DNA of 64,000 nt, taken from positions 54,932,001 to 54,996,000 of the forward strand of contig OX597824.1 in assembly GCA_951406725.2 (NCBI GenBank), written 5' to 3'. Position 1 is the stretch's first letter; each line of letters opens with the position of its first letter. Both the position numbers and the translations under genes were made by a program. The stretch is from Octopus vulgaris (taxonomy: Eukaryota). The notes beneath the pieces were generated by a model. That model was not told the origin of the DNA, searched no databases, and was given only the letters and a program-made list of their open reading frames with translations. Of the stretch, positions 1,627 through 64,000 are shown piece by piece.

Positions 1627-2798
1627 CTCTTATTATAAAAGGCAGATTTTAGCTGCCTCCCTTTGGGAGTTATAGAAATCTACAATATAGGATTTCTTCA
1701 ATTACAATTTACCTAGCAGTTTTAGGAGTACAATGCATCGCGTCATGCCAGGTCCAGTTTTTAAAATTTAAACTCCAATTAAGCAAAATTTACAGAAAAC
1801 TCACATTCTGGTGTGTGTGTCAAATGCTTTTCTTAGTCTGGTTTACACTACACGCAAACGCACACACACAGTGGGCAACGAATAAAATGAAAGTAAATGT
1901 AATATTTGTTTCTGTCTATCACGCTGATAGATACATGAGTAAAATGTATGGGAAGCTAACAGATAACAGTGAGTGAAAATGTTCTTGGAAGAGAGTAAAT
2001 TAGCGACAGTGATTTGAGGAAGACTAAACTGAAACTATGAAACAGTGTTTATGTATAGACAGACGACACTTATAAAACCCTTTCGTTACCAAACCGCCCG
2101 AATTTACCTATTCATATTTAAATGAGAATATCAGAGTAAATCTCTTTAGTACATTCGTGAAAACACGTATTATACTTCGTAAACACTTCAAATACAGTTT
2201 TGTACAAAAATCGAAGTGTAATTTTAATTCCGTGAATTATGGGAGATTTTTTTCCGAAATTTGTTCCTGTTGTGTTTTCAAAATTTGTAATTCTGACAAA
2301 AAATGGATACGAATTTCATTATATCAAGCAGCAAGTCAGAATTCGAAGGATTTTCTACTGAAGACCTTCATAAATCTAACTCTATGACTGAAAAAAAAAA
2401 GCATCTTTATATAAGAGTGAAGTTGTGTGTCTGTCCCCTTCGATTTACATTCGTAATTACTCCCACATTTTGCGGTGCAGTTTAACCAAAAGCGGGTATC
2501 TTATAGTCGTGATTCATATCGAGCCCTTCTGGGTATTAGCGCGCGTCTACGATGAGTCTACGATTTAAAAAAAATTTACCATCATATTTTTCCATTTTAA
2601 TGCATTTTTTTCGCTTTTATATAAGGGAAGTAACTCTCTAAAAATATCTACGATGTGTCAACGATTTAAAGAAAATTTACCTTAATTTTTTTTTAATTTT
2701 TAATGCATTTTTTTTGCTATTTTTTGGCTATAACTCTCTAAAAATGCTTATATAGTTATTTCCCTTACAACCCGAGCAACGCCGGGCGATACTGCTAG
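1626..2798 (+). mobile_element. Composite non-autonomous Helitron (two TC 5' ends, one CTAG 3' end)
   Basis: A|TCtcttattataaaaggcaga at 1626; second A|TCtttatataagag at 2404; hairpin 2771-2786 and CTAG|T at 2795-2799. Confidence 0.75.
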
Positions 2799-3182
2799 TG
2801 TATGAATATAACACGTGCGTTTGTGTATGTGTATGAGTGTGCATGTGTGTGGGTGTGCGTGTGTGAGTGTTTGTGTTCGTATCAGTGGAAAAAAGATAGA
2901 AAGGAAGGGAGAAGGGCAATAAATGGTGTCTTTAGGCCGACCAGGCTTGCTCCCTTGGGAGAGCTGGCCTGGTGAGTCGAGGTCAAAATAAAAATAAAGA
3001 TAAGATAAAATTAAAATTAGGGAAGAAACGTGTGTGTATGTGTGTGCATGTATATGCATATGTATGTGTATGTATATATGTGTGTATATATATATATATA
3101 TGTGTGTGTATATATATATATATATGTATAAGTGTGGGTATGTATGTGTGTATGTATATATATGTGTATGTATATATGTATG

Positions 3183-3228
<46 letters not shown>

Positions 3229-3426
3229 TATGTGAGCGTGTGAGTATGGGGGTGTATATCCTCCTTTATATTTGTTTTTGTGTTTATATTTACATTTATA
3301 TTTTCTTATATATGTGTGTAGAGATATGAGTGTATGTATGAGTATGGATATGGGCGGGTACGTAGATGTATGTAAATGGGTGCATATGTACATGTGTATA
3401 TGGATGTATGTGTGTATGTGTACGTA

Positions 3427-3513
<87 letters not shown>

Positions 3514-3820
3514 GTATGTGTGTGTGTATGTGTATATATATACATGTGTGTGTATGTGTATATATATATATATAAGTGAGAGTCTCCTTATTTACCTAAA
3601 ACTCTGTTATTCTATTTATTCTTTTATCTACTTTATCACTGATTCCTTTCCCCTAAGAATGATAGTTTGCGCCATGTCTACCCCCAAAAAGTCCCCCCAC
3701 CACCACCCCTTTAAACCTGCCTAAATGTATAAATGCCAAAACTATTCTTGTCACCTAGCTTCCTGATGATTTCTTTTGAATGAAACAGTTCTAGTCCTGT
3801 AGAAGCTCCTTCTATAAAAT

Positions 3821-3826
<6 letters not shown>
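2799..3826 (+). mobile_element. Non-coding, microsatellite-bodied element ending in a hammerhead (non-autonomous PLE/retrozyme-like), copy A
   Basis: Unique segments 2800-3030 and 3574-3826 are reverse-complement homologs of about 62930-63145 and 62320-62585; terminal HHR; no real ORF. Confidence 0.7.
3757..3807 (+). ncRNA. Type I hammerhead ribozyme
   Basis: agcttc-CTGATGA-tttc tttt gaat-GAAA-cag ttctagtc ctg-TA-gaagct: canonical core, 6-bp stem I, predicted cleavage after 3801. Confidence 0.85.
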
Positions 3827-3886
<60 letters not shown>

Positions 3887-4045
3887 AATATATATATATA
3901 TATTATTTTATTTTATAGAAGGAGCTTCTACACCAAACGGTATATACAGGTGCTTACAATTATCAAGTACTCACCCCGAATTTATATATATATATATATA
4001 TATATATTTACTTCATAAATTGAAACTGATTTGAAAATCGGAAAA

Positions 4046-4089
4046 CCACCTGACGAATGTCATTTGAAGACATGAAACGATTGTAGTGG
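4046..4089 (+). ncRNA. Minimal type I hammerhead ribozyme
   Basis: ccac-CTGACGA-atgtc atttgaa gacat-GAAA-cgattg-TA-gtgg; very short stem III typical of PLE-associated HHRs. Confidence 0.85.
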
Positions 4090-4320
4090 CGGTTTATTTA
4101 ATTTATATAAAAATTTTATGTATTGATTAAGTCTTTCCTTGTTTGTTTTGCAAAATAGTGGTTTTGTCTCGAATTAATATTATATATATATATATATAAT
4201 ATTATATATATATATATATAATATTAATTCGAGACAAAACCACTATTTTGCAAAACAAACAAGGAAAGACTTAATCAATACATAAAATTTTAATATAAAT
4301 TAAATAAACCGCCACTACAA
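4081..4320. repeat. Inverted repeat of a pseudo-LTR tail around a (TA)n spacer
   Basis: 4081-~4180 is the near-perfect reverse complement of ~4221-4320. Confidence 0.9.
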
Positions 4321-4348
4321 TATATATATTGTGTGTGTGTGTGTGTGT

Positions 4349-4610
4349 GGAGGCGCAATAGCCCAGTGGTTAGGGCAGCGGACTCGCAGTCGTTGGATCG
4401 TGGTTTCGATTCCCAGACCGGGTGTTGTGAGTGTTTATTGAGCGAAAACACCTAAAAGCTCCACGAGGCTGGGGGTGGTGGCGGTACCTGCTGTACTCTT
4501 TCGCTACAACTTTCTCTCACCCTTTCTTCTGTTGGCCTGCTCGCTTAGCCAAGCGGGGTGGCGTCATTCGAAGGCTAAAACGATGCGAAAGCATTGTGAC
4601 CAGCGAAGTA
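4349..4610 (+). mobile_element. tRNA-derived SINE (truncated)
   Basis: ggaggcgcaatagcccagtggttaggg (A box) and ggtttcgattccc (B box); homologous to 38891-39281. Confidence 0.85.
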
Positions 4611-4962: not shown

Positions 4963-5009
<47 letters not shown>

Positions 5010-5055
5010 AAACAAGTCAAAAATAGAAAATGCTAAGATAATTTTATAGTGAATC

Positions 5056-5099
5056 TTTCAGTACCGGTTTCGGTCATTTTGAGACCTTTTCAACTGTAA
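5056..5099 (-). ncRNA. Hammerhead ribozyme, U3-A8 core variant
   Basis: Minus strand reads cag-TTGAAAA-ggtc tcaaaat gacc-GAAA-ccgg-TA-ctg; palindromic stem III. Confidence 0.75.
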
Positions 5100-5419
5100 C
5101 GATTAAATAATTAAATTTAGAAAAATTAGAAGAAAAGTTTTTTTAAAAGGAATATTTCTATAGTAGTGTTCAGATATAAGTGGCATTCTGCCTTTCTCTG
5201 ACTCCCTTGTTTGCACTTGTGTGTTCGAGGTCGTTGTGAGTTCTTGGTAGGGTAGGAGAAGCAGAAGGCTGATGTGGAGAGGGGTGGGGAAATCTGGGAA
5301 TGCCTTGATGGTCGTATTTTGAATGGTCAGTGGCGGACAGCAGTCGCAGTTCAATTCAGGAATTGTTTATGGAATTTGCGTAGGCGTTATACTGAAAGGC
5401 ATTAGTGACATGGTTAAGG

Positions 5420-5575
5420 AGTAGAAGGTGGAGAAGTAGAAGAAGAAGAAGAAGATGACGATATTGATGATGATGATGATGAAGAAGAAGGAGAAGGAGA
5501 AGATGATGGTGATGATGATGACGACGATGATGATGATAATGATGATGATGAAGAAGAAGAGGAAGAAGAAGAAAA
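5420..5575. repeat. (GAA)n/(GAT)n trinucleotide tract in the PLE 3' UTR
   Basis: Mixed gaa/gat runs. Confidence 0.9.
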
Positions 5576-5699
5576 AAACAGAGAAGGGAGAATATGAATG
5601 GGTGAAAGTATAGCTGTGATGGGGCTGATTAGTAATGGATTCTATGGAATGTAATATTTGTGTGTGTATATATTTCTTTTATTCTAAAGTTGAGGTATA

Positions 5700-8030
5700 T
5701 TAATTGTTTGTCGTAGACCCGTTAAGAAGTGGCCTGTATTTTGTAATAAAGAGATTTTCTTTACTTATTCGTTGTCTCGAGGTTGTATCGTCCCTAAATT
5801 GGTAGAGGGGGAAAATTCTGAAGTTTGGTGTTTTTTTGTTGGCGCAAGTATCTATGTGTTGGCTAAAAGCTATTTTTCTGTTTTGGGGAATTTTTATCTG
5901 GGATCTGTGCAGGGCCATTCGTTTACGCAAACCATTTTTTGTTTGGCCTATGTACTGCTCTTGACACCCGGAGCAGGTTAATGAGTATATTAGGTTCTCC
6001 GAAGCACATGTGAAGTTGCTTTTCACTGTAAACCGTTGTCCCTGTTTGAAGGAGAACTCTGATCCCTCAATTAGATAGTCGCATATCCCGCAATTGGGTC
6101 TTCCACATTTTTTTACTGTCGGCTTCAGTGTTGAAGAGTGAATTCGGGCTTGTGTTAGGAGACTTTTCATGGATCTAGGCTGTCTTTTGCTTTTTATGAT
6201 CGTGTGTGTTTGGAGGATTGTGTTCATTCTGTGGTCTTTTTTTAGGAGGGGTATGTTGTGGAGGATGTTGCCGAAGGCTTCGTTATTGAGAGGGTTGTGT
6301 GTGGAGATGTATGGTAAGGCTTTTGGTTGTAAGTTTTTCTTTGATTTGGGATGTCTCAGTTCCTTGATGTTAAGTTGAAGGGCACGTTGAATGCACTTGT
6401 CAATAAGTGAAGGTGGATAGTTCCTGGTGATAAGGGTATCTTTTAGTTCTTGTAGTCGTGTGTCTCTGGTGTTTGCGTTAGAGACTATAGTGCATATCCT
6501 TTTTGCTAGATTGAAGGGGATATTCATCCTGGTGTGTCTGGGGTGGCATGAATTGAATGGAAGATATTGCTTAGAGTCTGTAGGCTTATAGTATATGTCT
6601 GTTTCTATTATATTATTAGCTTTCTTAATGAGGATATCGAGGAAGGGGAGTTGTTGCTGGCTATATTCCATCGTGAATTGGATGTTTACGTCCAGTCCGT
6701 TTAAAATTTCCTGGAATTCTATGAGTTTTTCTATATTTTTATGCCAAAGAATGAAACAGTCATCTAGATATCTCTTCCAGTTGTTTTCTATGTAGATGGA
6801 GAAAGGGCTGCCATATCTTTCTAGAACCTTACGATACAGACTGATCTCTAGGTATCCTATGACTAGGTTGGCAAAGGAGGGGGCCATTCGTGTACCCATT
6901 GCAGTCCCCGATTTTTGTCGGTAGAAGTTGTCATTGAAGGCGAAGAAGTTATTTTCCAGGATGAATTTAACCCCTTCTATCACGAATTCTTTTTTGATGC
7001 GGTGTGGTAGTTCGTTGGCGTGATTCTCTAGCCAGAATTGGATTGCCTCTAGTCCTAGGTTGTGGGGGATATTGGAGTAGAGGTTGGCTACATCGAAGGA
7101 TACCAGTATGGTGTTTTTGTTTATAGTATTCGGTAGGTGATTGAGCATATCTAAGTCGTCCCTTATATAGCTTTTGACATGTTTGAGGAGTGGTTTTAAC
7201 AGGGTGTCTAAAAAGTTACTGAGGCGGTGGGTTTCTCATGCGGGACCTGCTATTATGGGTCTCAATTTGAGGTCATTAGGATTAGGGACTTTAATTATTT
7301 TGTCTGTAGCTATCTTGCATGCGTTGCTTATTTTTTCACTTTTGTGGATCTTAGGTATACCGTAGAATTGGCTAGTTTTACTTGTGAAATTGGTCATATA
7401 ATCATATTCTTTGTCGGTGAGCCCTGCTTTGTATGTGTTTAATATGAATTTTAGTTCCCTCATTATTTTTTGTTGACTGTAGTTTTGTGCCTTTTCATAG
7501 TATGTTGTGTCTTCCAGCAGGGAAAGTACCAAAGTTATGTAAAATGTCGTATCCATTAAGACAACAGCACTCCCTTTATCGGCCTCCTTGATTGTTATTG
7601 TTTTATCTTGTTTTAATTTGTTCAACTCAGCCCATTCTTTTTTGCTGAAGTTTGGTTTGTGTTTTTGTTTGTGCATATGTTGATATGGGTAATTAGATAT
7701 GTGGTCACAGAAATCATCAAGTGTTTTGTTCTTACCTTTCGAGGGGGTGTAGTTACTCCTATTTCTGGCTAACGATTCGTCCTCGTTGTATTTATCGTAT
7801 AGCTCTTCAGTAAGTCTTAATTTTCTGCAGAATTCTGCGATGTCTTCTTTCATTTCGTTGTAGTTGGGGTGTTATGGGGTGGGTGTAAACTTGAGTCCTT
7901 TGGAAAGTATGTTTATTTGGTTTGCTGTTAGTTCCTTGTGAGTTAGATTGATAATTTTTATTACTTTTGGTTCCTCCTGCTTGTTTGGTGCTATCTTGTG
8001 TCTCTGTGTTTGCGTATTGGGTCTAAAAAA
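5700..8030 (-). pseudogene. PLE RT-GIY-YIG reading frame with two in-frame stops
   Basis: ORFs 7236-7853 and 5700-7148 share a frame and are split by TGA at 7238-7236; TAA at about 7873; the frame continues upstream through LSKGLKFTPTP to about 8050. Confidence 0.85.
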
Positions 8031-8937
8031 TGAATGCGGTGGTTGGGACGGTAGCTATTATATAGTTGTTCTTTGTTGATGTGGGGTCTCCTGTTGTGAT
8101 TTATGGTGTGTGTTCTTGGAGCAGTATTGAGGAGAGCATCCCGATATCCCATATTCGGGTGTGGTGTTCTAGGAGGCCTTCGTTGGTAATCATTGTAAGT
8201 GGTGTGGGTTTGTTGTGCATGGTTGTTTAACCGGTTGATGGGACGGAGATTTCGTTGGTAACTCTTTTGGGTGGGGATAAGGTTGCAGTGTCTATGCTGT
8301 GGGTGTTGATTTATCCTTTCTCTGCTTGAAGTGGGGGTATTCCTGATATTGTAACGCTGGCTGCTTACAGAGTTAGGGTTAGGTCCTGTATTCTTTTAGA
8401 CAGGTGTGTATCGGTGTTTGGGTGTTGTTTTGGTTTTCTTATTTTCTGGAAAGGGTTGTTGGAGGCGTGCTCTGTTTGAAAGACGGCTTCATAGTCTGAG
8501 AACCAAATGGCGCTTTTCTCCCAGCGTTGGAGAGATTTTAGTTCTTCTTTTTCACAGTCCTCTTTCCATAGTTTGGAGAACTTCTCTTGATCTGGGCCTT
8601 GGGTCATTTTGCGAATTTCTTCGTTGATATCTTCATCGGTGGATTTTATTTTATCCTCATTCGTTTGAGCCCTCAATTTCAGAAGTTCTATTTCCATTTT
8701 CATTTTTTCCAGTGCCATTCTCTCCCTGAGGTGTCTTTGTGTTTCAGGTTCCTCTGTAATAGCTTTGAACTGGAATTTACGAGGGAGGATTAACGGGGTC
8801 CGGTTGAGCCATTTTTCGTATATATCCGCTTTGTTGTTGTTTTGGATCATCTTCCAAAAGGCGAACTTTCTATCTCTGAGTGATTTGTTCCATTTGTTCC
8901 TTTTCTTCTAATTTTTCTAAATTTAATTATTTAATCG

Positions 8938-8981
8938 TTACAGTTGAAAAGGTCTCAAAATGACCGAAACCGGTACTGAAA
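8938..8981 (+). ncRNA. Hammerhead ribozyme, U3-A8 variant (inverted pseudo-LTR copy)
   Basis: Identical to the 5056-5099 motif on the opposite strand. Confidence 0.75.
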
Positions 8982-9067
8982 GATTCACTATAAAATTATC
9001 TTAGCATTTTCTATTTTTGACTTGTTTTTTCATATATATCAACTCGTGTGTTCCTTTCCACCCTTAT

Positions 9068-9164: not shown

Positions 9165-10017
9165 TAAAAGATAAGAATATTCTTCTTTCAGCCTCGTTTC
9201 ATCTACCTACTAATTGCACAGATCATTATTATTATTATTATTCTTTTCATTATTCTGTCTAGTTCAGTAACATGCCATTCATGTAAATATACTTTTCGTT
9301 TAGTCTTGTCTTCCTCTCGAAGATAACCTTATATTCATTGATTCTCTTAACTATTAATGTCTTATGACACAGCCGCTCCTCTATTGCCTAAAATTTCTCT
9401 TTCTCAGATTTTTCAAACCTTCCCTTTTGGTCTCATGATTAGCCACGATTAGCAGACCCTCTTCCTAGTTAGATGTCCACGTATTTCCTCAACCCAACAT
9501 ATTCATTGATTCATCCTTTAAAGTGTTATCACACAGGTGGCTGTGTGATAACACTTTAAAGGATGAATCAATGAATATGTATTCTCTAAAACTTTGTCTT
9601 AGATTGCCTGACGATCTCAGATTTTACTTTTTCAAGTCTATCTTAAATATTATCGATACTGCCGTCTCCTTTTAACTATGCCAGTCAGATCCCCTCAAAA
9701 TGTTTCCTCCTGCGTGTTTTCTTGTCCACTTCTCCCCCTCACTAACTAACCCTGTCTATGTCCCTATGTTTCTCTATGTCTCCCTCTTTCGATAACCACT
9801 TGCTTCGCCTAGACCTCCTCCCACCACCATCGCCCTTTTATAAACTAGCGAAAGCATAACGGGACTCCCACTCGCTTCCTAACCCCTACCGAAGAATAAC
9901 GGACTGCTCATGAACGGATAAAAGATAAGAATCTTTCTTTCAACCTCGCTTCTTCTACCTACTATCTTTGCACATATTATTCTTTCATTACTTTTTCATT
10001 ATTCTGTCTAGTTCAGT
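9165..10017 (+). mobile_element. Non-coding element bounded by ~100-bp direct repeats (possible non-autonomous PLE)
   Basis: aaaagataagaat...ttctgtctagttcagt at 9165-9267 and 9920-10017; internal perfect hairpin at 9497-9580. Confidence 0.45.
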
Positions 10018-29883: not shown

Positions 29884-31860
29884 ATATTTGGCCTCATCTT
29901 GTTTTAGCTGATATACTCTCCAGCTTTGCGATATCCCTCTATCCTTATTTTGAGGGGCAGCATGTTTCATCTTTGTATAACCTACCACAGCTGCATGGGA
30001 TGGAGTACACATAGTCTTTGGTCATATTCTCTTCTATTGGTGGTTTTACTTGAAGGAGGTAATTTCGAAGTATTTTATTAATCTTCAATACTGTTCTGAT
30101 GTCATATGGGTTGCATATCTTTTGTATCTTTTCGGAGAAGCCTTTCACATAGGGTATACAGACTGTGGTCAGTTTATGGGTTCCATCCTCTCTTCTCTTC
30201 ATAATTGTGTGCTTTTGGGGTAGTTGTTGCTTAATAGATTGCTACTTAGCTTGATCATTTCTTCATGGTGTTTATCAGGATCGCTACTTATATTCTTTGC
30301 TTGATGTTTTAGGCACTGAGCAATCCCCCTCTTTACACTGTATGGATGGTGGGAATTGAAGTTGAGGTATTGTCTGGTGAAGGCTGGCTTGCGGTATATA
30401 GACGTACTGGATCCATACTTGGTGTGTGTTATTAATACACCCAGGAATGCTAGCTGATTGTCTTTTTCCTTTTCCATTGTGAACTGAATGGATGGCTTTA
30501 TTGAGTTCACATGATATAACAGTACTTGGACATCTTCCTGGTGGGGCCAGAGTATAAAGGTGTCATCAACATATCGCAGCCATAGGGTTGGTTTTAGTGG
30601 TGTTGATCCTAAAGCCAAATTCTCAAAGTATTCCATGAATATATTGGCTATTATTGGTGATAATGGCAAACCCATAGCTAAACCCTCTTCTTGTTGATAT
30701 ATATCCGTTCCCATACTGATGTAGGTAGTTTCTACACAGAAGGTCAACATTTCCAACAAGTATTGCTTGTACTTCATTGGTATAAAGTGACCCTTGTTCT
30801 TGGTCAAGATCTGTGACAACTTCCTCTCTGTTTTCAGAGCTGGGTCTTTCTTTACTTTGCTGTAGCTACCATCACTTATGAGACTTGCCAATTTTTCAGA
30901 GTAGTCAGACTTGTTCATCACCACTAGTCTGTTGGAAGTATTATGATGGAATTGTCATTCTGTTGTATTTTGATAGCGAACTTTTCTTCCTTAGTGATGT
31001 TTGGTTTGAGAAGTTTCGTTTTTTCTTGTACTTGTCTCATTTTCCACCTTAGTTCATCTCCCTGAGCTTTTGGTATTTTTATGGCTATCTCTTCAATAGG
31101 GGCTATTATGTCCAAGTATGGAATGAACTTGATGGTTGTTGCAAAGTTGAGACCTTTGTTTAGTACCACTTCTTCAGAGCTTTCTAGATGTTGGCTACTT
31201 ACGTTAATTACTGCTTTCACAGGTGGGTGACAGACTTCAGTCTTCATTCTCTGACCTTCATAAACTTCTTAACCTGGCATGTCTTCACCTTTTCAAATTC
31301 TTTATTGCACAACTTTTCTAGATCTTGTTGGATTCTCTTTCAATCATCATCTCTGGTTATTCTCCTAAGTAATGAAGATAACCTCTCTCTGATTTCATTA
31401 TTTAGTTGATGTTTTTTCCAATGGTTATAATGGATCTTCTCACAGACGAGGGCATGTCTTGCCATTTCCGCTACTCTTCAAACTTTATATGAATCCACTG
31501 GTATCATTACATTCAAGCCGGGTGGTATTAGCTTTGAGTCTCTACATCTACACAGGAAAGTTAGATGGTTTGAAAGATGAGCTAGTTCCTGATGGAGTTT
31601 CTCTGTATGTCTCCATTGAAGTCTAATGTTAGCTCCACACCGATTAGATAATACAGTTCTATATTTGAGAGATGAGGTATTATGTACATTATTTATATTT
31701 GATGGATATTCGTTGTCACCTTGTTTGTTGTTAACACAATGTTTCGGCTGATATACTCTCCAGCCTTCTTCAGGTGTCCTGGGGAAATTTCAAACCTGGG
31801 TTCTCATTCCTAAGGTATTTTTTGATGTTATTATTATTATTATTATTATTCAGGTCTGAC
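29884..31860 (-). mobile_element. Penelope-like element (Penelope/Poseidon-type), degenerate; 3' pseudo-LTR continues at 26640-26698
   Basis: LNKGLNFA, GLAMGLPLSP, WLRYVDDTF, YVYSIPCSCG; pseudo-LTR 31652-31770 is repeated at 26641-26698 plus 29884-29925. Confidence 0.88.
31733..31778 (-). ncRNA. Minimal type I hammerhead in PLE pseudo-LTR
   Basis: Minus strand reads gacac-CTGAAGA-a ggctg gagagtatat cagcc-GAAA-ca-TT-gtgtt; stem III minimal and probably mutated. Confidence 0.7.
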
Positions 31861-38163: not shown

Positions 38164-38890
38164 TAGTGTATAAATGTATGGTGACAATACAGAATAAGTA
38201 CTATGTTGGAGCTACAATGAAACATATGAAGGAGCACATCTTGATGCATAGGCACGCCTTCTCAAACTCTTGTCATAAGTTCTCAACATACTCAGGATGA
38301 TTACTTGCAGATTACAACACATACTTGCATAATATTTTTGGATAACTTACTGTTATGCATGTGGAAGCTAATGCACATCCACACACGTGTGTATGTGTGT
38401 GCATAAAGCAGCATGTAGAAAGAGTGAGGACAGTATGTGAGATGTCTGCCTGTGTGTGGGTATAAGCGCATATGTGTATATATATATATCTGCACATGCA
38501 TGTACATATAACTACATGTGTATGCATATAGATGTGTATGTGAGTGTATGTATACATATGGCCAAGAATGACTGATTTATGATGTACTTATAAAGGCAAC
38601 TGCTAAATGCCAAGCTTGTCAAACCAGAACTCATCGGACCTAAACATAGAGATGTCAAGAAAGATGGCAACTATTTTTCTTTTGTACAATGACATATGGT
38701 GGAGAGAATGGAGTTACTACTACAATAACTGTAAGCTTTTCTACCTCACTTTCTTCCCTTTTCTCTTTTATGTGTACATACATGTGTGTATGTTCCTCCC
38801 TATCCTTCTCTCTCTTTTCCTCATTCTTCTCTTAACATTATCCCTCGACCTTGCCTCCTATCATCTTGTATTCTGGTATACCACCCTGTG

Positions 38891-39281
38891 AGTGGAGGCG
38901 CAATGGCCCAGTGGTTAGGACAGCGGACTCGTGGTCATAGGATCGCGGTTTCAATTCACAGACCGGGCGTTATGAGTATTTATTGAGCGAAAACACCTAA
39001 AAAGGCTCCACGAGGCTCCGGCAGGGGATAGTGGTGATCCCTGCTGTACTCTTTCACCACAACTTTCTCTTACTCTTACTTCCTGTTTCTGTTGTACCTG
39101 TATTTCAAGGGGCTGGCCTTGTCACTCTCTGTGTCACGCTGAATATCCCCGAGAACTATGTTAAGGGTGCACATGTCTGTGGAGTGCTCAGCCACTTACA
39201 CGTTAATTTCACGAGCAGGCTGTTCCGTTGATTCGGATCAACCGGAACCTTCATCGTCGTAACCGACGGAGTGCTTCCATC
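38891..39281 (+). mobile_element. Full-length tRNA-derived SINE with 13-bp TSD
   Basis: A and B boxes; TSD ataccaccctgtg at 38878-38890 and 39282-39294. Confidence 0.9.
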
Positions 39282-47732: not shown

Positions 47733-49754
47733 CCTTCTCCATGTTGCTGTCACAATTTGTCGTCCACAAATTTTCTCCCCTGTAGTTGCAGGCACATTTT
47801 GTTGCCTTGAGAGGGATGCTTAAAATAAACACTCTGTAAATTCTATTTCCGGTACTTTAAGCTGGAAACAGTGTACTTTTGATTCAGAATGAGGCTTAAA
47901 CTTCCATTTTAGGACACCATTTTCATTGTTTATATTCTTGCCACAAGATACACAAGCTTTGAAATCAATTACTGATTTTTTTATTTTTACCAAATGAAAA
48001 CTGCCACTCTTGCATTTGATGAAGCTTTTCTACAAGAAATCTTTGATTCTGACTCAGATGGCAATTTTGAAAGATTTACTCAGATATCAATGGTGAAATG
48101 ATTCGAGGTGATGATGAGGATATAGAATGTATTTACAATGATATTGAAAATGATGTACTAAGTGGATACTATCATCTATAGTTGGTTCATTTTAAGGAAA
48201 ATACAGGCCCCAAGTAGGTACCTGATGGCATTTCTGAGGGACAACTCTTTCCTTACTTTCTTAATGATGAAATTATAATTTTGTTAACGAGAACTATGTA
48301 TGCTAGTCATGTGAAGGAAAAGAGAGGGGAAATGCTGGTGCCTACTTATATATCAACATATGGAAGAACACCACTTCTGAAGAAATGAAGATATTTGTCA
48401 CAATTTTACTTATGATTGGGTTCACCAAATAAATGCTCATCATTTGAATTATATTGGTCAACTGATGACTTTATTGAGATGACAGCTTCAGGTACATCAT
48501 GACAAGAGACAGATTTCTGAGAATCTTGTCCTTTTTCCATCCTTTGAGCAACTCCAAAGCGAAACCAAAGAATCATCCTGAGCATGATAGGGCTCACAAA
48601 ATCCAACCACTTTTTGAAAAGCTTGTGCCACTTCGGCAAAAATACTTTTACTGTGGAAAGGAATATTCAGTGGATGAAAGTATGATTTCTTTCAAAGGAA
48701 GAACATGTCTACTGATCTACATGCCAACAAAATCAACCAAGTGGAACCTGAAAGCTGGGGGATGGCTGATGCAAAAACCAGGTACATGTACAACTGGCAG
48801 CTGTACTTGGGCTCAGAAACAACCCAGGTACCAAGAGCAGTTGGTGTTGGACCATAAAGTGGTTTCCTCCCTGACAGAGAATGTACAAAATAAGGGCCAT
48901 GTCATTTATATGGACAATTTAATTTCATCATCTACATTGTTCCAGGATCTAGTGCAAAATGGAACAGGGGCATGTGCCACACTATGTGTAAACTGTCAAG
49001 TATGCCTTATGAAATCAAAGCAACAAGACTCCAAGCAGGCACTACTCCATCATACAGAGATGGACACATTTTGTACATTTCCAGGTATGACAAAAGACCT
49101 GTTTATCTTCTGACAACTGCCTACTCTGCTCAGACCTTCAGAAAAGAAGATCGATCAAAGCATCATGAAGATCATACCGGATTGTTATACATACCTTGTG
49201 CTGTGTGGTCCTACTATCAACACATGGGGATGATAGTGCAGACAAGCAGATGTACCAAGTGGAAGAAGAAAGTTTTTTTCTACGTCTTTGAAATATGTTT
49301 CTGTAATGCCCTTGTCATCTGGAAAGCCAAGTCAGTTCACCAGGTCAATGCTGAAAAGTTCAGGCTCAAAATTGTACATTCTCTGCTGGAAGGCTACCAG
49401 TCAGGTGCATCTCACGGGAGAGGGAAAAATCAGAATCCCCTTACCCAGAGAAACTGGTGTTAACAGAACACCTTATTATTAACCCCAAGCACCTAAAATC
49501 TGGCAGGCCATCTTGCCCAGATTGTGTTGCTTGTTTAAACAGAGAGAAAAAGATCACCAAACCAAGTTTGCTTGCAGGAAATGTAATGTGGCACTCTGCC
49601 CATACCCCTGCTTCCACAGTCTGAGAGAGTACAAAGTAGACTGCACTCAAGAACTCCATAAAAAGTGATCAAGGTATGTTGTAAGTATATTAACAAATCT
49701 GTGCTTTTTGTTTTTGTTTTATTTATTTTTTGATGTCAAAACATGGTGAACAGG
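47733..49754 (+). mobile_element. piggyBac (PGBD4-like) transposon, degenerate; a fragment is duplicated at 50640-50790
   Basis: TTAA|cc left end; MTRDRF, VDESMISFKGR, YMDN motifs and a Cys-rich C-terminus. Confidence 0.85.
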
Positions 49755-49799
49755 AAATTGACTGCATTCACCATGTGGAATTTTCCAAGTAATTGTTGT

Positions 49800-50340
49800 C
49801 CCTGAAATACCAATATCAAACAGTAAGACCATCTAAGTCAGATATAGGTAAAATTAGCAAAGCAATAATAAATGGGATGATACCTAAATTAAAATGTGTA
49901 AACAACCTCAGATTATGGTCTAACACAAATGAAGTTATCATATGGTTTAAAAGGCTGGGGAAAAAAACAAGACCAAACATGTGCAGCTAAACATATCAAA
50001 CTACTACCAGTCCATAAACCCAGTTCTACTAAACAAGGCGCTAATATTCACTAAGACCAACTGAGAAGAAATAAATATAATTTTTGCTGCTAGGAGCACT
50101 ATAATAGAATAAGGAGGTAAGCTATGGAGTTGATTGGACAGGGTTGGCTCATTTGACATAACAATGGGGTCCAGTGACTACACACAAGTCACAGATTTAG
50201 TATGTACCTATTATTGCAAATAGAATCTTGGCAACCGAACATGGGGGAGGTAGGATTATATAGAGATGATGCATTGTTCACTATACAAAAAGTAGCAACG
50301 TAGAAATAGAAAGATGCAAGAAACAACTTTTTAAATTCTT
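49800..50340 (+). mobile_element. Highly decayed PLE RT fragment (GLYRDD type)
   Basis: PSKSDIGKISK, FDITMGS, GLYRDDAL motifs. Confidence 0.6.
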
Positions 50341-50390
50341 GTAATTTGTTATGTACAATAAATAAGATAACCAGACAACAGTAAAAACAA

Positions 50391-50592: not shown

Positions 50593-50999
50593 ATTTCGAC
50601 TGCTGTGAGAAAGTGGAATTTCTTTCCTTTTTTTTTTTTCTTTCCAGGTATGACAAAAGACCTGTGAATTTTCTGACAACTGCCTACTCTGCTCAGACCT
50701 TCAGAAAAGAAGATCAATCAAAGCGTTATGAAGATCATACCAGGATTGTTGTACATACCTTGTGCTGTGCAGTCCTACTATCAACACATTTTTTCTTTTT
50801 TAGTCTTGAGTATCTTAATTGTTGCCTGACTTTTAAGGTAGTATTATTCATTGCACACAATTTTTCTTTTTCTTGCGTTTGGATATATGATTTAACGAAG
50901 CAAAAGTAAAGCAATGTATTCACATGATATGCTTCGACTACTGCTATGTGAGACTCAAATGCCCTCAGTTGTCTCAACAATAATGGACACAAAAACACT

Positions 51000-51590
51000 A
51001 AGGAGAAAAAACAAAACACCACACCTCACTTTAAATCACTCCCATACATATCAACCCACAACCCCAGAAACAATGAAGCATACAATACAATTATACAAAA
51101 TCTCCCTCTGCTCACTCAAGACTCAAAAATGAACAACATCCTAAATACACATAAACTCCTCAAATGCAAAAGACAACACAAATCACTCAAGAGACTCCTA
51201 AAAATGCAAAACTATACTCAATACATACAATACAAACAGTTAAAAAATGCAGGTGACCTAATTGTGGTATATGTTCATAGCTAACTGAAGGCTCGGAATT
51301 CACATTCCAGCAAGGAGAAAAATTGTCAATTAAGACCAACTTCACATGTACTTCCCAGAATCTTATCTATGTCTTAACCTGCTCAAGTTGTGGCTACAAT
51401 TATGTGGGCCAGATGAGCCTTACTTTGAGATGCACTTTGAGATGCAGAGTCATGCTGCATAAAGAACAGATTCATATTCTTCAATACAGGCAGATAGCCC
51501 TGAGCAAACATATCGACAGATGCGCAAAAAATAAAACGCCGAATTTCCTTATCTTTCCATTATATCAATGCAAAGATTCAATCGCCTTAC
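51000..51590 (+). mobile_element. Neptune-type PLE GIY-YIG fragment
   Basis: NFTCTSQNLIYVLTCSSCGYNYVGQ; homologous to 5700-6300. Confidence 0.8.
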
Positions 51591-51889: not shown

Positions 51890-53880
51890 AAAGAGAAAAT
51901 AAACTACACATGGTAGATATATGGGGAAAGTAAGAAGAAAAAAGCGAAAATGGACATTGAATAAGAAAAAATAAAGGCTTTTTAAGAAAAGTAACGATAA
52001 ATATATGCAATTACATGAACTGAGGTAGAATTGAGAGGAATAAAAGTCATTATTTTGAATTGTTAAAGGAATTCAAAGTCATAACTGGTATTGTCAATTG
52101 CTGTTCACTGGCTTTGAATGCACACCAATTACCAAATGGTGTTAGGTCTACTAGTCCCCGAGTAAAAGATTATATGCAAGGGAGGTAAGTAGTTCTAGGA
52201 GTGGTGCAATTAGGGTAGATGTAATACTGTATGGAATATATGGGAATTAGTGGTATTACTGGTAAGGTTATTAGTGTTCTGTTTTATGTTATGTGTTCAT
52301 GTTGAGTTGTGGATCATGTTTATTGATGAAAGTTGCTTCTTTATTTATTCTTTGCTGAACAGAAGTGTTCTGTGAACATGGGTTACCTAGAAGTCAAACT
52401 ATACCAATCATCACTACAAAAATATGGCACCTCATTTCATTGCTATTTAACAGAGAACTGGAAGAGGTACTTAAATGATTGCTTTATACTTTGGAAAGAT
52501 AGCATGGACAAATTCCTCGATTTCAAAATAATGCTCAACAATATCAATAGCAATATCAATTCACCATGGAATACAGCAATAAACAACTTGCATTTCTTGA
52601 CATCCTAATTAAAATAGTCAATAACCACATTGAAATGGACATCTATAAACCCACAGATTCAAAACAATACTTATTATTCAACTCATGCTACCCCAAACAC
52701 ATAAAAATTAATATACCTTATAATCTAGAGAAAAGAATCTGTACCATAGTTTTGGACACCAATACTCATGAACTCAGATCAATACTAATCAAGAGACATT
52801 ACCCAAAATCATTAATAAATGATGGCATTAAACGAGCAAAGAAAATAGACATACGAACTTTAAGGGAAGTCAACTGAAATACTACACCAGACTTTAAAAT
52901 ACTCTCATAAATTTTCACACACAACCCTAGAAACAATGAGGCCTTTAACATTATCATCCAAAATCTACCCATCCTCACAGGAAATAAAACAATGAACAAA
53001 ATTTTAGGTTCACACAAAATTATCAAGAGCAAAATGCAACTGAAATCATCGAAAAAAATATTAACCAATGCAAGACTATATCCATTAACAATGGAACCAA
53101 AAGTGAAAAAATGCAGTCAGCCTAATTGTGGCAAATGCAGCCACCTTTTGGAGGATACAGAGTTCCACTATAAAAAAGGTGAAATATTTAAGATAAAATC
53201 AAATTTTACCTGTGCCTTGGAAAACCTAATCTATGCCATTACCTGCTTAGGATGTGGTAATAATTATAGTGGCCGAACAGGAATGTCTCTCCGTCAAAGA
53301 TCAACTCTTCACAAACAACAAATCCACTACCCACAATACAGACAGTTACAAGAAAGGTGTGCTAGGAACCTTAATCCTAACTTCCAAATTTTCCCTTTAT
53401 ATCAATCAATGTTCATAGAACACCTCAGTTCAGCAAAGAATGAATAAAGAAGCAACTTTCAATAAACATCATCCACAACTCAATATGAACACATAACATA
53501 ATACAGAACACTACTAATTTCACACTGAATACCACTAATTCCCATACATTCCATACACCACTCATATTACAGTATTACATCTACCCTAATTGCACCAAAC
53601 CCAGAACTACTTACCTCCCTTACACATAATCTTTTTACACAGGGACTAGTAGACCTAACACCATTTGGTAATCATTGTGCATTCAAAACCAGCGAACAGA
53701 AATTGACAATGTTGGTATGACTTTCAATCCCTTTAGCAATTCAAAATAATGACTTTTCTTCCCCTCAATTCTACCTCAGTTCATGTAATTGTATATATTT
53801 ATTGTTACTTTTCATAAAAAGGCCTTTATTTTTTTTCTTATTCAATGTGCATTTTTGCTTTTTCTTCTTACTTTCCCTAT
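51890..53880 (+). mobile_element. Neptune-type PLE 3' half with an inverted 5' copy of its tail
   Basis: WKRYLNDCFILW and NLIYAITC motifs at 52370-53450; 51890-52325 is the diverged reverse complement of about 53470-53880. Confidence 0.82.
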
Positions 53881-54004: not shown

Positions 54005-54040
<36 letters not shown>

Positions 54041-54042
<2 letters not shown>

Positions 54043-55952
54043 CTCTTTTACTCTTTTACTTGTTTCAGCCATCCGGCTGAGGCCATGCTGGGGCACCGCC
54101 CTTGTTGCTACCCTCTCTAAGTCCAGTTTGCCGTGGCTGGCTACTGATCTAAGAGAGAGTTTGTAGCTGCTGCCCTTAGGTTACCTTCGTACCTTGCAGT
54201 GGGTTCATCTGGGATCCCGGAAAGCAGCTTGTCTAGATGTTTTTTGAAAATGTCCACATCCGCATCATGTAGATCTCTTAGTTTTCTTGGCAGTTTGTTG
54301 AACAGCTGAGGGCCCCTGAACCCCAGGCTATTACAGTATCTGCTCCTTACCCTGGATGTGGAAGACGGGACCTTTGGCACCACACAGTGACGTCCTGTAC
54401 GGGGATTGGAACAGCTCTCAATTCCAAAATTTGGTGCTAGTCCCTCCAGGATTTTCCATATGTATATCACTGCATATCTCTCTCGTCTTCGTTCCAAGGA
54501 GTACAAATTGAGTTCCCTAAGCCTCTCCCAATAGTTCTTTTCTTTCATGGTGGAAATCCTCTTGGTGAAATGTCTTTGGATTGTCTCAAGCTCTGTGGTT
54601 AGTTTGACACTATGCGGTGACCACAGTTGGGAGCAGTAGTCCAGGCGTCTTAGGACAAATGTCCTCCATAGTGTCAACATGGTCTCGCAGTCTCTTGTCC
54701 GGAATGTCCTCAGGATCCAGCCAGTGAGTCGTCTGCACATTGTCGCCACCTTCGCGATGTGTGAAGAAAAAGATGCATCGTCACTCATGTCTATCCCCAG
54801 GTCCCGTATTGATTTCGATACTGGGATTTCGATCCCTCCTGGACCAGTATAGTTGTGTTGTAATGTATATGTGTTTACAGCTTGATATTGTAAGGCTTGA
54901 AATTTACCAGCATTAAATTGCATGTTGTTGTCTTCAGCCCATTTGTATATGGCATCCAGATCTTGTTGTAAAAGGTCAGCATCAGCTGGGTTTTTGATTG
55001 CCTGTGCTACCTTTGTGTCATCAGCATAGCTAGTGAGGGATGTTGTTAGTGCTACCAAGGGCATGTCAGAGAGCGCCACCAAAAACAGCAAGGGTCCCAA
55101 GACTGTGCCCTGTGGCACCCCGCTTGCTATTGGTGTCTTTCCCGAGAGGGCTCCATTGGCTGCAACCATCTGGCTTCTGTCCTTCAGGAAGTCATGTATC
55201 CACTCACCTACTTTTCCTGTTATGCCGAGTCTGAGTAATTTGTGACATATCACTCCGTGGTCGACTTTGTCAAAGGCCTTCGCAAAGTCGAGATATACCA
55301 CATCCACCTGTGAGCGATCCAGTAGTTGTTTCAGTACCCAGTCGTAGTGTTGTAACAGCTGCGTAAGGCAGCTTCTTCCTGGGCGAAAGCCATGCTGTGT
55401 GTCAGTGAGACGGTTAGTTTCTTCGAGGAACGTGATCAGTTTTTTTCTGATGATTCGTTCCATGACCTTACTTATGTGTGACGTCAGGGAGACTGGCCTG
55501 TAGTTTTTGGCCTCTGCTCTACTCCCTCCTTTGTGGATAGGGCATATGGTGCCTTCTTTTAGCGCCCTGGGCAGTTTACCGTTAGCCAAGGAACCACTGA
55601 AGAGCTTCTTCAGTGGTCCCGCTAGGGCATGCCTGCATGTTTTTAGGAGGACTGCTGGGAATCTATCTGGTCCAGCAGCTGAGTTTATTCTCATTTCTTC
55701 TATGGCAGATATTACATCCCTCTCTGTTATGTCTATGTGGTCGATGGTTGTTGTTTGGTTTTGGAGTGTTGTGGCATCAAAGAAAACTTCTGGGTTTGTG
55801 ATTTGCATGTGCCCCAGAGGGGATGTGAACACACTTTTATACTGTTCCTTTAGTATTTCACTTATCCCTTGGGGGTCCTCAGTTAGAGAGCCCTTTTTAT
55901 CAAAGAGTGGGCCAATCTTGCAGTGTACCGAGGTGGTTTCTTTCGCAAATTT
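54041..55952 (-). mobile_element. CR1/Jockey-group LINE, 5'-truncated copy 1
   Basis: [33 protein letters not shown]; (GAGTAAAA)n tail; premature stop near the C-terminus. Confidence 0.9.
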
Positions 55953-55963
55953 ATATGTATATA

Positions 55964-56040
<77 letters not shown>

Positions 56041-56177
56041 GTATATATATATGTATATGTATATATATATATGTGTATATATATATATGTATATATATGT
56101 ATATATATAAATATATTTTATATATATATATATATATATGTATGTATATATGTATGTATATATGAATGTATATATGA

Positions 56178-56475
56178 TACTGTAATAGCCTGGGGTTTAG
56201 GGGCCCTCAGCTGTTCAACAAACTGCCAAGAAAACTAAGAGATCTACATGATGCGGATGTGGACATTTTCAAAAAACATCTAGACAAGCTGCTTTCCGGG
56301 ATCCCAGATGAACCCACTGCAAGGTACGAAGGTAACCTAAGGGCAGCAGCTACAAACTCTCTCTTAGATCAGTGGCCAGCCACGGCAAACTGGACTTAGA
56401 GAGGGTAGCAACAAGGGCGGTGCCCCAGCATGGCCTCAGCCGGATGGCTGAAACAAGTAAAAGAGTAAAAGAGTA
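56178..56475 (+). mobile_element. Same LINE, short 3' fragment in the opposite orientation
   Basis: Reverse complement of 54041-54336. Confidence 0.9.
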
Positions 56476-56591: not shown

Positions 56592-56908
56592 CATACATAT
56601 ATATATACATATATACATATAATTTCAACAATTGAGGGTAAAATTAATTAATTATTAATCAATTTCACCAAGTATTCAGTATGTAAAGGGACCATTTAAG
56701 GCGAATTCAAATTATTACATTATATAAAAGGGCTTAGTAAAATAAATTACTTTGCCACATACTGAACTCATTAGAAATAGTAGCTAAAAAAACTTTTTTA
56801 AAACTATTTCTAATACTTAAAGAAAATCTCTCTCATATAGTGTTTGCTCAATTCAACTCACGAAAGTATGGGGGTAAAGACATTAAAAAATCAAATGCAA
56901 AGGTTATT

Positions 56909-56960
56909 TGAGAACGTACGTTTCAAGATTAGTCAACTCGACATTTCTATCATCAGCTCA
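56909..56960 (-). ncRNA. Type I hammerhead ribozyme
   Basis: Minus strand reads tgag-CTGATGA-…gtc gagtt gac…-GAAA-cgtacg-TT-ctca; palindromic stem III. Confidence 0.72.
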
Positions 56961-57674: not shown

Positions 57675-57726
57675 TGAGCTGATGATAGAAATGTCGAGTT
57701 GACTAATCTTGAAACGTACGTTCTCA
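57675..57726 (+). ncRNA. Type I hammerhead ribozyme (inverted copy)
   Basis: CTGATGA 57679-57685, GAAA 57711-57714, cgtacg, TT, ctca. Confidence 0.72.
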
Positions 57727-59008: not shown

Positions 59009-59047
59009 ATATATACATATATATATATACATATATATATATATACA

Positions 59048-61308: not shown

Positions 61309-61309
<1 letters not shown>
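59048..61309 (-). mobile_element. CR1/Jockey-group LINE, 5'-truncated copy 2 with open RT frame
   Basis: Near-identical to copy 1; the real coding part is 59132-~61308, and the rest of the 1043-aa ORF is microsatellite. Confidence 0.92.
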
Positions 61310-62319
<1,010 letters not shown>

Positions 62320-62326
<7 letters not shown>

Positions 62327-62657
62327 TATAAAAGGAGCTTCTACAGGACTAGAACTGTTTCATTCAAGAGAAATCATCAGGAAGCTAGTTAACAAGAATT
62401 GTATTGGCATTTATATATTTAGGTAGGTTTAAAGGGGTGGTGGTGGGGGACTTTTTGGGGGTAGGCATAGCGCAAAAATATCATACTTGGGGGAGTGGTC
62501 AAGGAGTCAGTGGTAAATTAGATAAAAGAATAAAAAAATATATAGAAGAATAGAGTTTTAGGTAAATAAGGAGATTCTCACTTATACCTATACACATATG
62601 TATATATATATACACACACACACATATACACACACATATATATATACATATATACAC

Positions 62658-62702
<45 letters not shown>

Positions 62703-62842
62703 CGCACACACACATACACACACACATGTATATATACACACACGCCCCCACATACATATACACACAAAAATATATACATACACACACATACACATACACA
62801 CACATATCTACATACACACATGCACACACAAGTCCATATATA

Positions 62843-62881
<39 letters not shown>

Positions 62882-63531
62882 GTGTACCTATACATACCTA
62901 CACATACACACATATACATACAAATACAAACCCATTCCCTAATTTTAATTTTATTATTATCTTCATTTATTACTTTTGTTATCTTTGACCGCGGGTCACA
63001 AGCATCTTGGCTATCGTCCCCTTGGGGACGACAGCAAGTCCATTTATCTTTCTACTCGAACACAAGCACTCACTCACGCACGCACGCACACTCACTCATT
63101 CGTACACTCATACACATACACGCACGCACTCGTTATATTCATACATACATACATCTACATACATTCACATATATACACATACGTACGCGTACCTACAGAT
63201 TCATGTCTACACGCTTACACATACATACCTCAATACACCCACAGAAGACTAGTCCATACATATACACCAATAAATATATATACACACATACATATACACC
63301 TACATACAAATACATACACATACACATATATATATATATATATATACGTATATATACATACATATACATACACCCATACATACATACATATATATATACA
63401 CATACACACACCCACACATATACATATATGCGCATACATACACATACATATACACATACACACACCCACACATATACATATACACGCATACATACACATA
63501 CATATACATACATATACATACATATACATAC

Positions 63532-63592
<61 letters not shown>

Positions 63593-63790
63593 CATACATA
63601 CACATACATATATACACACACACATACACACACATACATACACATATACATACACACACATACACATATACATGCGTACCCATACACACACACACACGCG
63701 CGCATCCATATATACACATAAGTACACACATGCGTAAAAGTATACATATATCTATACATATGCTTACACATACACACACACACAGGCGCC
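62320..63790 (-). mobile_element. Microsatellite-bodied hammerhead element, copy B
   Basis: Homolog of 2799-3826; far boundary uncertain. Confidence 0.65.
62336..62386 (-). ncRNA. Type I hammerhead ribozyme
   Basis: Same as 3757-3807 except for one change in the stem II loop. Confidence 0.85.
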
Positions 63791-63956
63791 TCCTTATGTT
63801 CATATACTTACATACATACTCAAAAAATAAATAATAAAATATATATACGTGCAGTTATTCATATACATACATGCATACTCAAAAAATAAATAATAAATAT
63901 TAAGTATATATACGTGCAGTTACCTATTATACAGACGGATACATACATATAAACTT

Positions 63957-63997
<41 letters not shown>

Positions 63998-64000
63998 CCT

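What the first reader, a model, noticed from the sequence alone, without database searches (positions are those of the whole stretch)
2799..3826. Mobile element made mostly of microsatellite, with a conserved terminal ribozyme
Two opposite-strand copies about 60 kb apart (2799-3826 and 62320-63790) share the same order: TG-rich segment, GC hairpin, TA/TG arrays, about 250-bp unique tail, HHR. The 51-nt HHR differs at only one loop base while the rest is visibly diverged, which suggests selection on the ribozyme. Inference: a non-autonomous PLE derivative that spreads microsatellites and would be masked as simple repeat.
Basis: partly seen in the sequence, partly recalled or inferred. Interest (0 to 1): 0.75.

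Follow-up and report, generated by a model that had tools for sequence, protein, structure and literature searches.

The report
Microsatellite-filled Penelope passenger with hammerhead
Two copies of a repeat end in a well-preserved self-cutting-RNA motif of the kind carried by Penelope-like jumping genes and share a protein-free body of TG/TA microsatellite; it is likely a passenger copied by a Penelope enzyme and would spread microsatellites, but only two long copies could be examined.

Summary
Copies A (2799-3826, +) and B (62317-63145 and beyond, -) share in order: a TG-rich block, a hairpin slot, an A-rich block, TG/TA arrays, a C-rich tail of about 190 nt, a 51-nt type I hammerhead (1 difference, in loop II), and a (TA)n flank. 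The tail is a large repeat family (76-1788 contigs in each of 4 runs). Its 4 common hammerhead variants all lie at free positions (p about 0.003). The hammerhead looks most like those of Hydra-clade Penelope-like elements (PLEs).

Not shown:
- Head-to-tail linkage rests on 2 copies.
- The arrays and hairpins match in position and strand bias, not in sequence.
- B runs off the window with no 5' end.
- No autonomous partner was found.

Best reading (0.5): a non-autonomous PLE passenger, perhaps a Hydra-type 3' end that captured its own microsatellite flank. Main rival (0.25): truncated copies of an autonomous PLE with a long repetitive 3' UTR. This scan has already noted hammerhead-bearing PLE ends and retrozymes in TA tracts elsewhere in this genome; no note matched this sequence. 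New variant of a known kind; interest 0.4.

The parts
2799..2879 (+). Copy A, TG-rich head block; 5' limit of homology to B, abutting a Helitron-like 3' end
   Evidence: 80% to 63145-63057; 0 of 500 Markov nulls reach the score; neighbour described
2919..2987 (+). Copy A, hairpin slot between two anchors shared with B
   Evidence: -31 kcal/mol, z -3.6, 1 of 200 shuffles; interior not alignable to B's
2985..3024 (+). Copy A, A-rich block ending in a 20-mer identical in B
   Evidence: 88% over 42 nt; the 20-mer is found only in A and B
3031..3573 (+). Copy A, TG/TA arrays (543 nt), including a less regular stretch of about 190 nt (near 3230-3420) with no counterpart in B
   Evidence: TRF rows; skew +0.76; interruption map
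3574..3756 (+). Copy A, C/T-rich tail resembling a PLE 3' UTR
   Evidence: 17 substitutions and 4 indels vs B; tail skew -0.41 vs -0.54 for the neighbouring PLE 3' UTR; covered in all 4 runs
3757..3807 (+). Type I hammerhead motif: stem I 6 bp, stem II 3 bp behind a U.U pair, stem III 4 bp with an 8-nt loop holding a 4-nt palindrome; predicted cut after 3801
   Evidence: pattern scans; fold energies; variants
3808..3826 (+). Short extension after the hammerhead, ending at the (TA)n junction
   Evidence: 22-23 nt from the predicted cut to TA in A and B; loose ends at 3821-3823
3827..3903 (.). (TA)n flank, the likely target tract
3904..3932 (-). 29-nt inverted piece of the same 3' end, starting 4 nt 5' of the predicted cut
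   Evidence: 100% to 3798-3826
62317..62583 (-). Copy B, tail plus hammerhead (hammerhead 62386-62336)
62584..62930 (-). Copy B, TG/TA arrays (347 nt)
62935..63145 (-). Copy B head: A-rich block 62976-62935, hairpin slot 63047-62984, TG-rich block 63145-63057
63146..64000 (-). Further same-strand TG/TA arrays upstream in B, with a duplicated 59-nt spacing unit near 63800-63900; no 5' terminus within the window
   Evidence: skew +0.67; family D15; no RT or EN motif in context
61309..62316 (.). 1-kb (TA)n-rich 3' flank of B

Best explanation
This is a repeat family whose 3' end carries a hammerhead motif and abuts (TA)n, and it is likely a non-autonomous passenger of Penelope-like elements (PLEs), its microsatellite body likely copied as part of the RNA. 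Shown: the anatomy, the lack of an ORF over at least 1.68 kb in B, the many family members, and variation that spares the core and stems of the hammerhead. Inferred steps: (1) a Hydra-type 3' end (about 190-200 nt of UTR, hammerhead, 22-nt extension) sat in or beside a TG/TA tract and was transcribed through from upstream; (2) a PLE RT/GIY-YIG protein supplied in trans nicks (TA)n and primes reverse transcription at the 3' extension, then copies whatever lies upstream, so the old flank became the body; (3) early stops give 5'-shortened copies such as A, and inverted junction pieces; (4) the arrays then turn over by slippage and stop aligning, while tail and hammerhead stay under selection in master copies; (5) the hammerhead probably cuts weakly, perhaps as a dimer through the loop III palindrome. 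Each long insertion would deposit 0.35 to more than 1 kb of new TG/TA array, including new (TA)n target.
For: Same order and orientation of four homologous blocks in 2 of 2 long copies; the head 20-mer occurs nowhere else in the window. Both tails start at the same base against the array, with a sharp skew flip (+0.76/+0.80 to -0.41/-0.49). Homology ends at the (TA)n junction. Tail laid on 1788, 1209, 798 and 76 contigs in 4 of 4 runs, 29 of 29 bins covered, from organism labels A, B and D. The 4 common variants inside the hammerhead (3767 = N7; 3774 and 3776 = loop II; 3790 = loop III) all fall in the 13 free positions of 51, p = 0.003; 0 of 38 constrained sites vary vs 18 of 183 flank sites, p = 0.029. 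The 3790 variant lengthens the palindrome (dimer -15.2 vs -12.8 kcal/mol). Architecture matches the Hydra-clade table of PMC8557442: U.U flank of stem II in 14 of 25 families, same 4-bp stem III in 4 of 25 (counted by eye). Hydra stop-to-hammerhead distances are about 150-180 nt in the two consensus ends I could read, close to the tail length and far below 1.6 kb. Loose ends show TA after the 3' end in X4 and X13, and inverted hammerhead sequence joined at stem I in 11 contigs of X2.
Against: Only two long copies; the head was never tested against reads. Arrays and hairpin interiors are not alignable, so 'copied with the element' is not shown. No 5' terminus. No partner: the tail has no local match to the window's other PLE 3' regions (scores 17-20) and supplement searches for its motifs gave 0 hits. 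Long or repetitive 3' UTRs exist in coding PLEs: the neighbour at 5000-9035 has 607 nt from stop to hammerhead, with a trinucleotide array in it, and one consensus in the PMC8557442 supplement has a (CA)n run right after its apparent stop. Rfam finds no hammerhead at either locus even at E 10; the motif's fold z-scores are -0.10 and 0.27; the canonical G10.1-C11.1 pair is absent; loop III is 8 nt vs 1-3 nt in 25 of 25 Hydra rows. Variant-free stretches of 29-36 nt also occur outside the constrained hammerhead positions. The X2 loose-end consensus at 3823 (43 contigs, agreement 0.74) is not TA. Neither copy's internal arrays holds a nested PLE insertion.
Confidence: 0.5

Rival explanations
1. 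A and B are 5'-shortened copies of an autonomous PLE (Hydra, Neptune or Nematis type) whose 3' UTR is unusually long and microsatellite-rich; the ORF lies beyond the window edge.
For: B has no 5' end within the window. Most metazoan minimal hammerheads are solitary and attributed to truncated PLEs (PMC4209133). The neighbouring coding PLE has a 607-nt stop-to-hammerhead region with a microsatellite; a published consensus has (CA)n after its apparent stop.
Against: It needs more than 1.6 kb of UTR, against about 150-180 nt in the two Hydra ends read. The body is G-rich on the hammerhead strand while the window's PLE 3' UTR is C-rich. The head has diverged far more than the tail.
Confidence: 0.25
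2. Only the 253-nt tail is the mobile family. Head and arrays are shared by A and B through one rare event (a local inverted duplication or a low-copy capture of flank) and are not a family trait.
For: The copies are only 60 kb apart; head blocks were seen only here; no look-alike in the scan's notes; arrays do not align.
Against: Homology stops at the element's 3' end, with different flanks. A passive duplicate with a tail about 90% alike should not have a hairpin interior at shuffle-level identity that is still a strong hairpin in both (windows this stable: 26 of 1827, 3 of them these two hairpins). 10-31 contigs per run carry the B allele at 3606, so many copies reach the array edge.
Confidence: 0.17
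3. It is a long non-LTR retrozyme: a unit of more than 1.6 kb between two hammerheads that is cut out and circularised.
For: Non-coding, type I hammerhead with a dimer-capable loop III; a U.U-based stem II occurs in an axolotl retrozyme that cleaves 22% as monomer and better as dimer (PMC7229834 section 15).
Against: [quoted passage not shown]
Confidence: 0.08

Closest known systems
Hydra clade of C-terminal EN+ PLEs, including Hydra-1_Obim (Craig et al. 2021, PMC8557442; passages, section 11, supplement search hits and supplement parts 2 and 52 of 59 seen)
   Same: Sense-strand type I hammerhead near the 3' end; U.U flank of stem II (14 of 25 families); same 4-bp stem III (4 of 25); insertion in (TA)n; inverted pieces; UTR-sized C/T-rich tail.
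   Different: No ORF in at least 1.68 kb; microsatellite body; loop III of 8 nt (1-3 nt in 25 of 25); the hammerhead is not that of Hydra-1_Obim.
Non-autonomous PLE derivatives such as MRC1 of Chlamydomonas (PMC8557442, passage)
   Same: Works like them if the best reading is right: non-coding body with a PLE-type 3' end.
   Different: Similarity to an autonomous 3' end and head-to-tail copies, both reported for them, were not found here; the passage does not describe a microsatellite body.
Metazoan non-LTR retrozymes (PMC7229834, passages and section 15; bioRxiv 10.64898/2026.07.22.740005, part 1 of 5 and passages)
   Same: Non-coding, type I hammerhead, proposed PLE origin.
   Different: Not tandem, more than 1 kb long, low-complexity rather than highly self-paired; no RNA circle evidence.
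Microsatellite seeding by CR1-L3 and Rex LINEs in snakes (PMC6050309, passages)
   Same: A retroelement that carries a simple repeat to each new site.
   Different: There the repeat is at the 3' end of an autonomous LINE; here it is internal, dinucleotide, strand-biased and of the same kind as the target site.

Membership tests
Type I hammerhead motif of PLEs | Core CUGANGA, GAAA and UH with stems I-III | tested here: met
   hammerhead fold -7.3 vs MFE -7.6 kcal/mol
Type I hammerhead motif of PLEs | G10.1-C11.1 closing pair of stem II | tested here: not met
   U.U instead; so in 14 of 25 Hydra families and an active axolotl motif
Type I hammerhead motif of PLEs | Variation spares core and stems | tested here: met
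   4 of 4 common variants at free positions, p 0.003
Type I hammerhead motif of PLEs | Match to an Rfam hammerhead model | tested here: not met
   none at gathering score or E up to 10
Type I hammerhead motif of PLEs | Self-cleavage | not testable with these tools
   needs an in vitro assay
Autonomous PLE (Hydra, Neptune) | RT plus C-terminal GIY-YIG ORF | tested here: inconclusive
   absent from A and from 62317-64000, but B leaves the window
Autonomous PLE (Hydra, Neptune) | Insertion into (TA)n | tested here: met
   2 of 2 window copies; loose ends in X4 and X13, not clearly in X2
Autonomous PLE (Hydra, Neptune) | Tandem pLTR or inverted 5'-shortened copies | tested here: inconclusive
   inverted pieces seen (3904-3932; 11 contigs in X2, agreement 0.6); no tandem pLTR seen
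Non-autonomous PLE derivative | Defined full-length unit without ORF | tested here: inconclusive
   no 5' terminus; two copies only
Non-autonomous PLE derivative | 3' end similar to an autonomous family | tested here: inconclusive
   no match to four PLE 3' regions in the window or to two supplements; the genome could not be searched
Non-autonomous PLE derivative | Many dispersed copies | tested here: met
   for the tail only: 76-1788 contigs per run; head not tested
Non-LTR retrozyme | Tandem units of about 150-450 bp, each with a hammerhead | tested here: not met
   single motif per copy; none upstream in 1.6 kb
Non-LTR retrozyme | Circular RNA | not testable with these tools
   only contigs were available

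The most novel reading that the evidence does not exclude
A Penelope passenger born by capturing the microsatellite it landed in, which now copies 0.35 to more than 1 kb of TG/TA array, including fresh (TA)n landing sites, with every long insertion: a self-feeding loop that helps build this genome's very large dinucleotide content while hiding from repeat annotation.
Probability: 0.25. Interest if true: 0.7.

Novelty: new variant of a known kind. Interest (0 to 1): 0.4.

Why it matters
Hammerhead-tipped PLE ends in (TA)n, non-autonomous PLE derivatives and microsatellite seeding by retroelements are each described. I found no description of an element that combines them with an internal dinucleotide body (searches; the library lacks most subscription papers, and Repbase, Dfam and a recent octopus library on Zenodo were not seen). 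If the arrays are copied with the element, part of what is masked as simple repeat in such genomes is mobile-element body, and the element would make its own target sites. It would also confound microsatellite markers. The family's variants give a natural map of which hammerhead positions are under selection, which bears on the open question of what PLE hammerheads do.

Tried and rejected
No whole genome is held for this window, so no genome-wide consensus, copy count or partner search. Collection scans for the hammerhead pattern: 0 in metagenome, viral and prokaryote genome contigs. A shorter pattern gave 1 metagenome hit, L001, rejected as chance: no CUGANGA, no stem I, unrelated context. 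Protein searches with spurious frames across the tail and the head found nothing. Rfam gave only low-complexity miRNA-type matches below gathering scores; rejected. A consensus fold of the two hairpins gave 4 pairs only. No RNA holder listed; X5 is only guessed to be RNA, so nothing is claimed on expression. Summed contig depth is higher at the hammerhead than at 3592-3600 (3-20% of the peak in X2, X4 and X13; 67% in X5), which would fit frequent 5' shortening, but contig depth cannot rank parts or give copy number, so it is not used as evidence. I laid 4 of the 20 holder rows, and only the tail. The coding PLE at 5000-9035 was considered as the partner and rejected as the source of the tail: different hammerhead (U3-A8 core), no tail similarity. 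The idea that the arrays are stuttered out at insertion (an earlier AI note) was not tested; matching slot positions in both copies argue against it as the whole cause.

Full report
Setting. The window is AT-rich, repeat-dense animal DNA (36.8% GC; 49 tandem-repeat rows). That it looks octopus-like is my recall plus earlier AI notes, not a test. No whole genome is held, so the work rests on the window, one laying of public contigs on the tail, and papers.

What is there. Copy A (2799-3826, +) and copy B (minus strand) share a 253/267-nt tail at 86%. Pattern scans find a type I hammerhead in both: stem I 6 bp, CUGAUGA, a U.U pair then 3-bp stem II with a 4-nt loop, GAAA, 4-bp stem III with an 8-nt loop, and a GUA cut site after 3801. 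The hammerhead fold is 0.3 kcal/mol above the MFE. It is not more stable than shuffles (z -0.10 and 0.27), and Rfam does not detect it. Upstream lie TG/TA arrays (543 nt in A, 347 in B), an A-rich block with an exact 20-mer found only in these two places, a hairpin slot, and a TG-rich block whose match beats 500 of 500 Markov nulls at each of three orders. The arrays do not align better than composition-matched nulls. The two hairpins are strong (z -3.6, -4.7) and flanked by the same anchors, yet their interiors align at shuffle level. A stops at 2799 against a Helitron-like 3' end.

Is the ribozyme selected? Between A and B it differs at 1 of 51 sites against 20 substitutions and 4 indels over 201 flank positions (p 0.048 and 0.023); this is modest, and any-window chance is 0.38. 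The family data are stronger. The tail is held by 20 listed runs in 10 studies. I laid 4 of them: 1788, 1209, 798 and 76 contigs, all 29 bins covered. Of 22 listed variant sites, 4 are in the hammerhead: N7, two in loop II, one in loop III. All 4 are among the 13 free positions (p 0.003), and 0 of 38 constrained positions vary against 18 of 183 flank positions (p 0.029). Overall variability is not lower than in the flank (p 0.45), other stretches of 29-36 nt are also free of listed variants, and contigs under 80% alike are not counted. The loop III variant extends its palindrome and strengthens the predicted dimer (-15.2 vs -12.8 kcal/mol), in line with the dimer model for metazoan PLE hammerheads (PMC4209133, parts 1-2 of 4). 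Cleavage is untested; in the one PLE tested in vitro the hammerhead cut only with protein present and was not needed for insertion (PMC11167929, parts 1-2 of 4).

Which PLE? The table of Hydra-clade hammerheads in the supplement of PMC8557442 (counted by eye) shows the U.U flank in 14 of 25 families and the same 4-bp stem III in 4 of 25; loop III is 1-3 nt in all 25, against 8 here. Nearly all Hydra families insert in (TA)n. The motif is not that of Hydra-1_Obim, and motif searches in that supplement and in that of PMC13282606 gave 0 hits. In the two Hydra consensus ends I could read, stop and hammerhead are about 150-180 nt apart (by eye); the C-rich tail here runs 189 nt (A) and 203 nt (B) before the core. 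Loose ends show TA after 3821-3823 in X4 and X13 (not clearly in X2), and inverted hammerhead sequence joined at stem I in 11 contigs of X2; inverted shortened copies are a PLE hallmark. The coding PLE next door (5000-9035, minus; RVT_1 E 4e-8, GIY-YIG just under cut-off) has a different hammerhead and no tail similarity.

Mechanism. I read it as a non-autonomous passenger (0.5). The sharp change from G-rich body to C-rich, UTR-sized tail at the same base in both copies suggests that a Hydra-type 3' end was fused to, or captured, a microsatellite-rich flank. A PLE protein in trans would prime at the 3' extension on nicked (TA)n, as shown for internal initiation in AT-rich DNA by the anole element, and copy upstream until it stops. 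Slippage would then scramble the arrays. All of this is inference. The rivals are an autonomous PLE with a long repetitive 3' UTR (0.25; the neighbour has 607 nt with a trinucleotide array, and one published consensus has (CA)n after its apparent stop), a head shared through one rare event (0.17), and a long retrozyme (0.08; no tandem unit). Linkage of head and tail beyond these two copies is open, because the head and arrays were not tested against reads.

Novelty. PLE hammerheads, (TA)n targeting, non-autonomous PLEs (MRC1), retrozymes as PLE derivatives (bioRxiv 10.64898/2026.07.22.740005, part 1 of 5 and passages; its supplements are closed; PMC7229834, passages and section 15) and microsatellite seeding by LINEs (PMC6050309, passages) are known. 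Eight searches showed no PLE derivative with an internal dinucleotide body; other papers in those lists were seen as listings only. The O. vulgaris annotation (PMC13282606, parts 1-2 of 3 and a supplement search) lists 190 Penelope-like families, whose sequences I could not see and which may include this one. Earlier notes of this scan report many hammerhead-tipped PLE ends and retrozymes in this genome; none matched the tail or head by sequence or the wording. Verdict: real, a new variant of a known kind, with the interesting claim (it carries and seeds microsatellites) plausible but unproven. Interest 0.4.

Noticed in passing
window 5000-9035 (-): Near-complete coding PLE with DKG and CxxxxCxxC linker motifs (Neptune-like by my reading), an in-frame stop at 7236-7238, a U3-A8 core hammerhead at 5093 (-) and an inverted copy of its 3' end at the 5' side (hammerhead at 8944, +).
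   Followed up: partly
window 4046-4321: A second hammerhead family (core at 4050, +) with a 95-nt extension, facing a 101-nt inverted copy (99%) across a TA palindrome. The inverted arm starts 6 nt 5' of the predicted cut; the finding's own arm (3904-3932) starts 4 nt 5' of its cut. Both begin near but not at the cut site; unexplained.
   Followed up: partly
window 56618-57915: A third hammerhead family (cores at 57679 + and 56956 -) in a 489-nt perfect inverted repeat with a direct 185-nt duplicate; long stem II.
   Followed up: no
window 3933-3982 (+): 50-nt unique piece between the inverted arm and the next TA tract; its start resembles the 3' half of a hammerhead, so it may be the clipped end of another family. 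No other copy in the window.
   Followed up: partly
window 2402-2798; ends also near 222, 26944 and 38163: Helitron-like repeat (3' hairpin plus CTAG, internal 100-nt duplication) abutting the 5' limit of copy A; the copy ending at 222 is followed by a 1.4-kb strand-biased TA array.
   Followed up: partly
window 49750-50350 (+), 50990-51500 (+), 52350-53450 (+), 30199-30954 (-): Decayed PLE remnants: the first has Hydra-type RT motifs, the next two resemble the coding neighbour, the last has an RT domain (RVT_1 E 1e-9).
   Followed up: partly
window 54008-56470 and 59023-61309 (-): Two near-identical 5'-shortened LINE copies with long RT frames, each capped by a TA array; the second shares its array with the 3' flank of copy B.
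   Followed up: no
window, 13 of 15 TA arrays examined: The interruptions of TA arrays are mostly strand-biased (for example 88 G vs 3 C at 225-1626), so G bias alone is not specific to this element; its arrays are richer in G (13-29% vs mostly 1-10%).
   Followed up: partly
window 4342-4457 and 38887-39002: Two copies (89%) of a tRNA-like SINE head after a TG run; the label is recalled, not tested.
   Followed up: no
window 2950-2960 vs 63015-63025: The centres of the two hairpins read as reverse complements of each other, which a small inversion inside the stem could give; the whole interior does not align in either orientation.
   Followed up: partly
window 9480-9590: A fold-back inverted repeat of about 45 bp per arm with a 4-nt centre, upstream of the coding PLE.
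   Followed up: no
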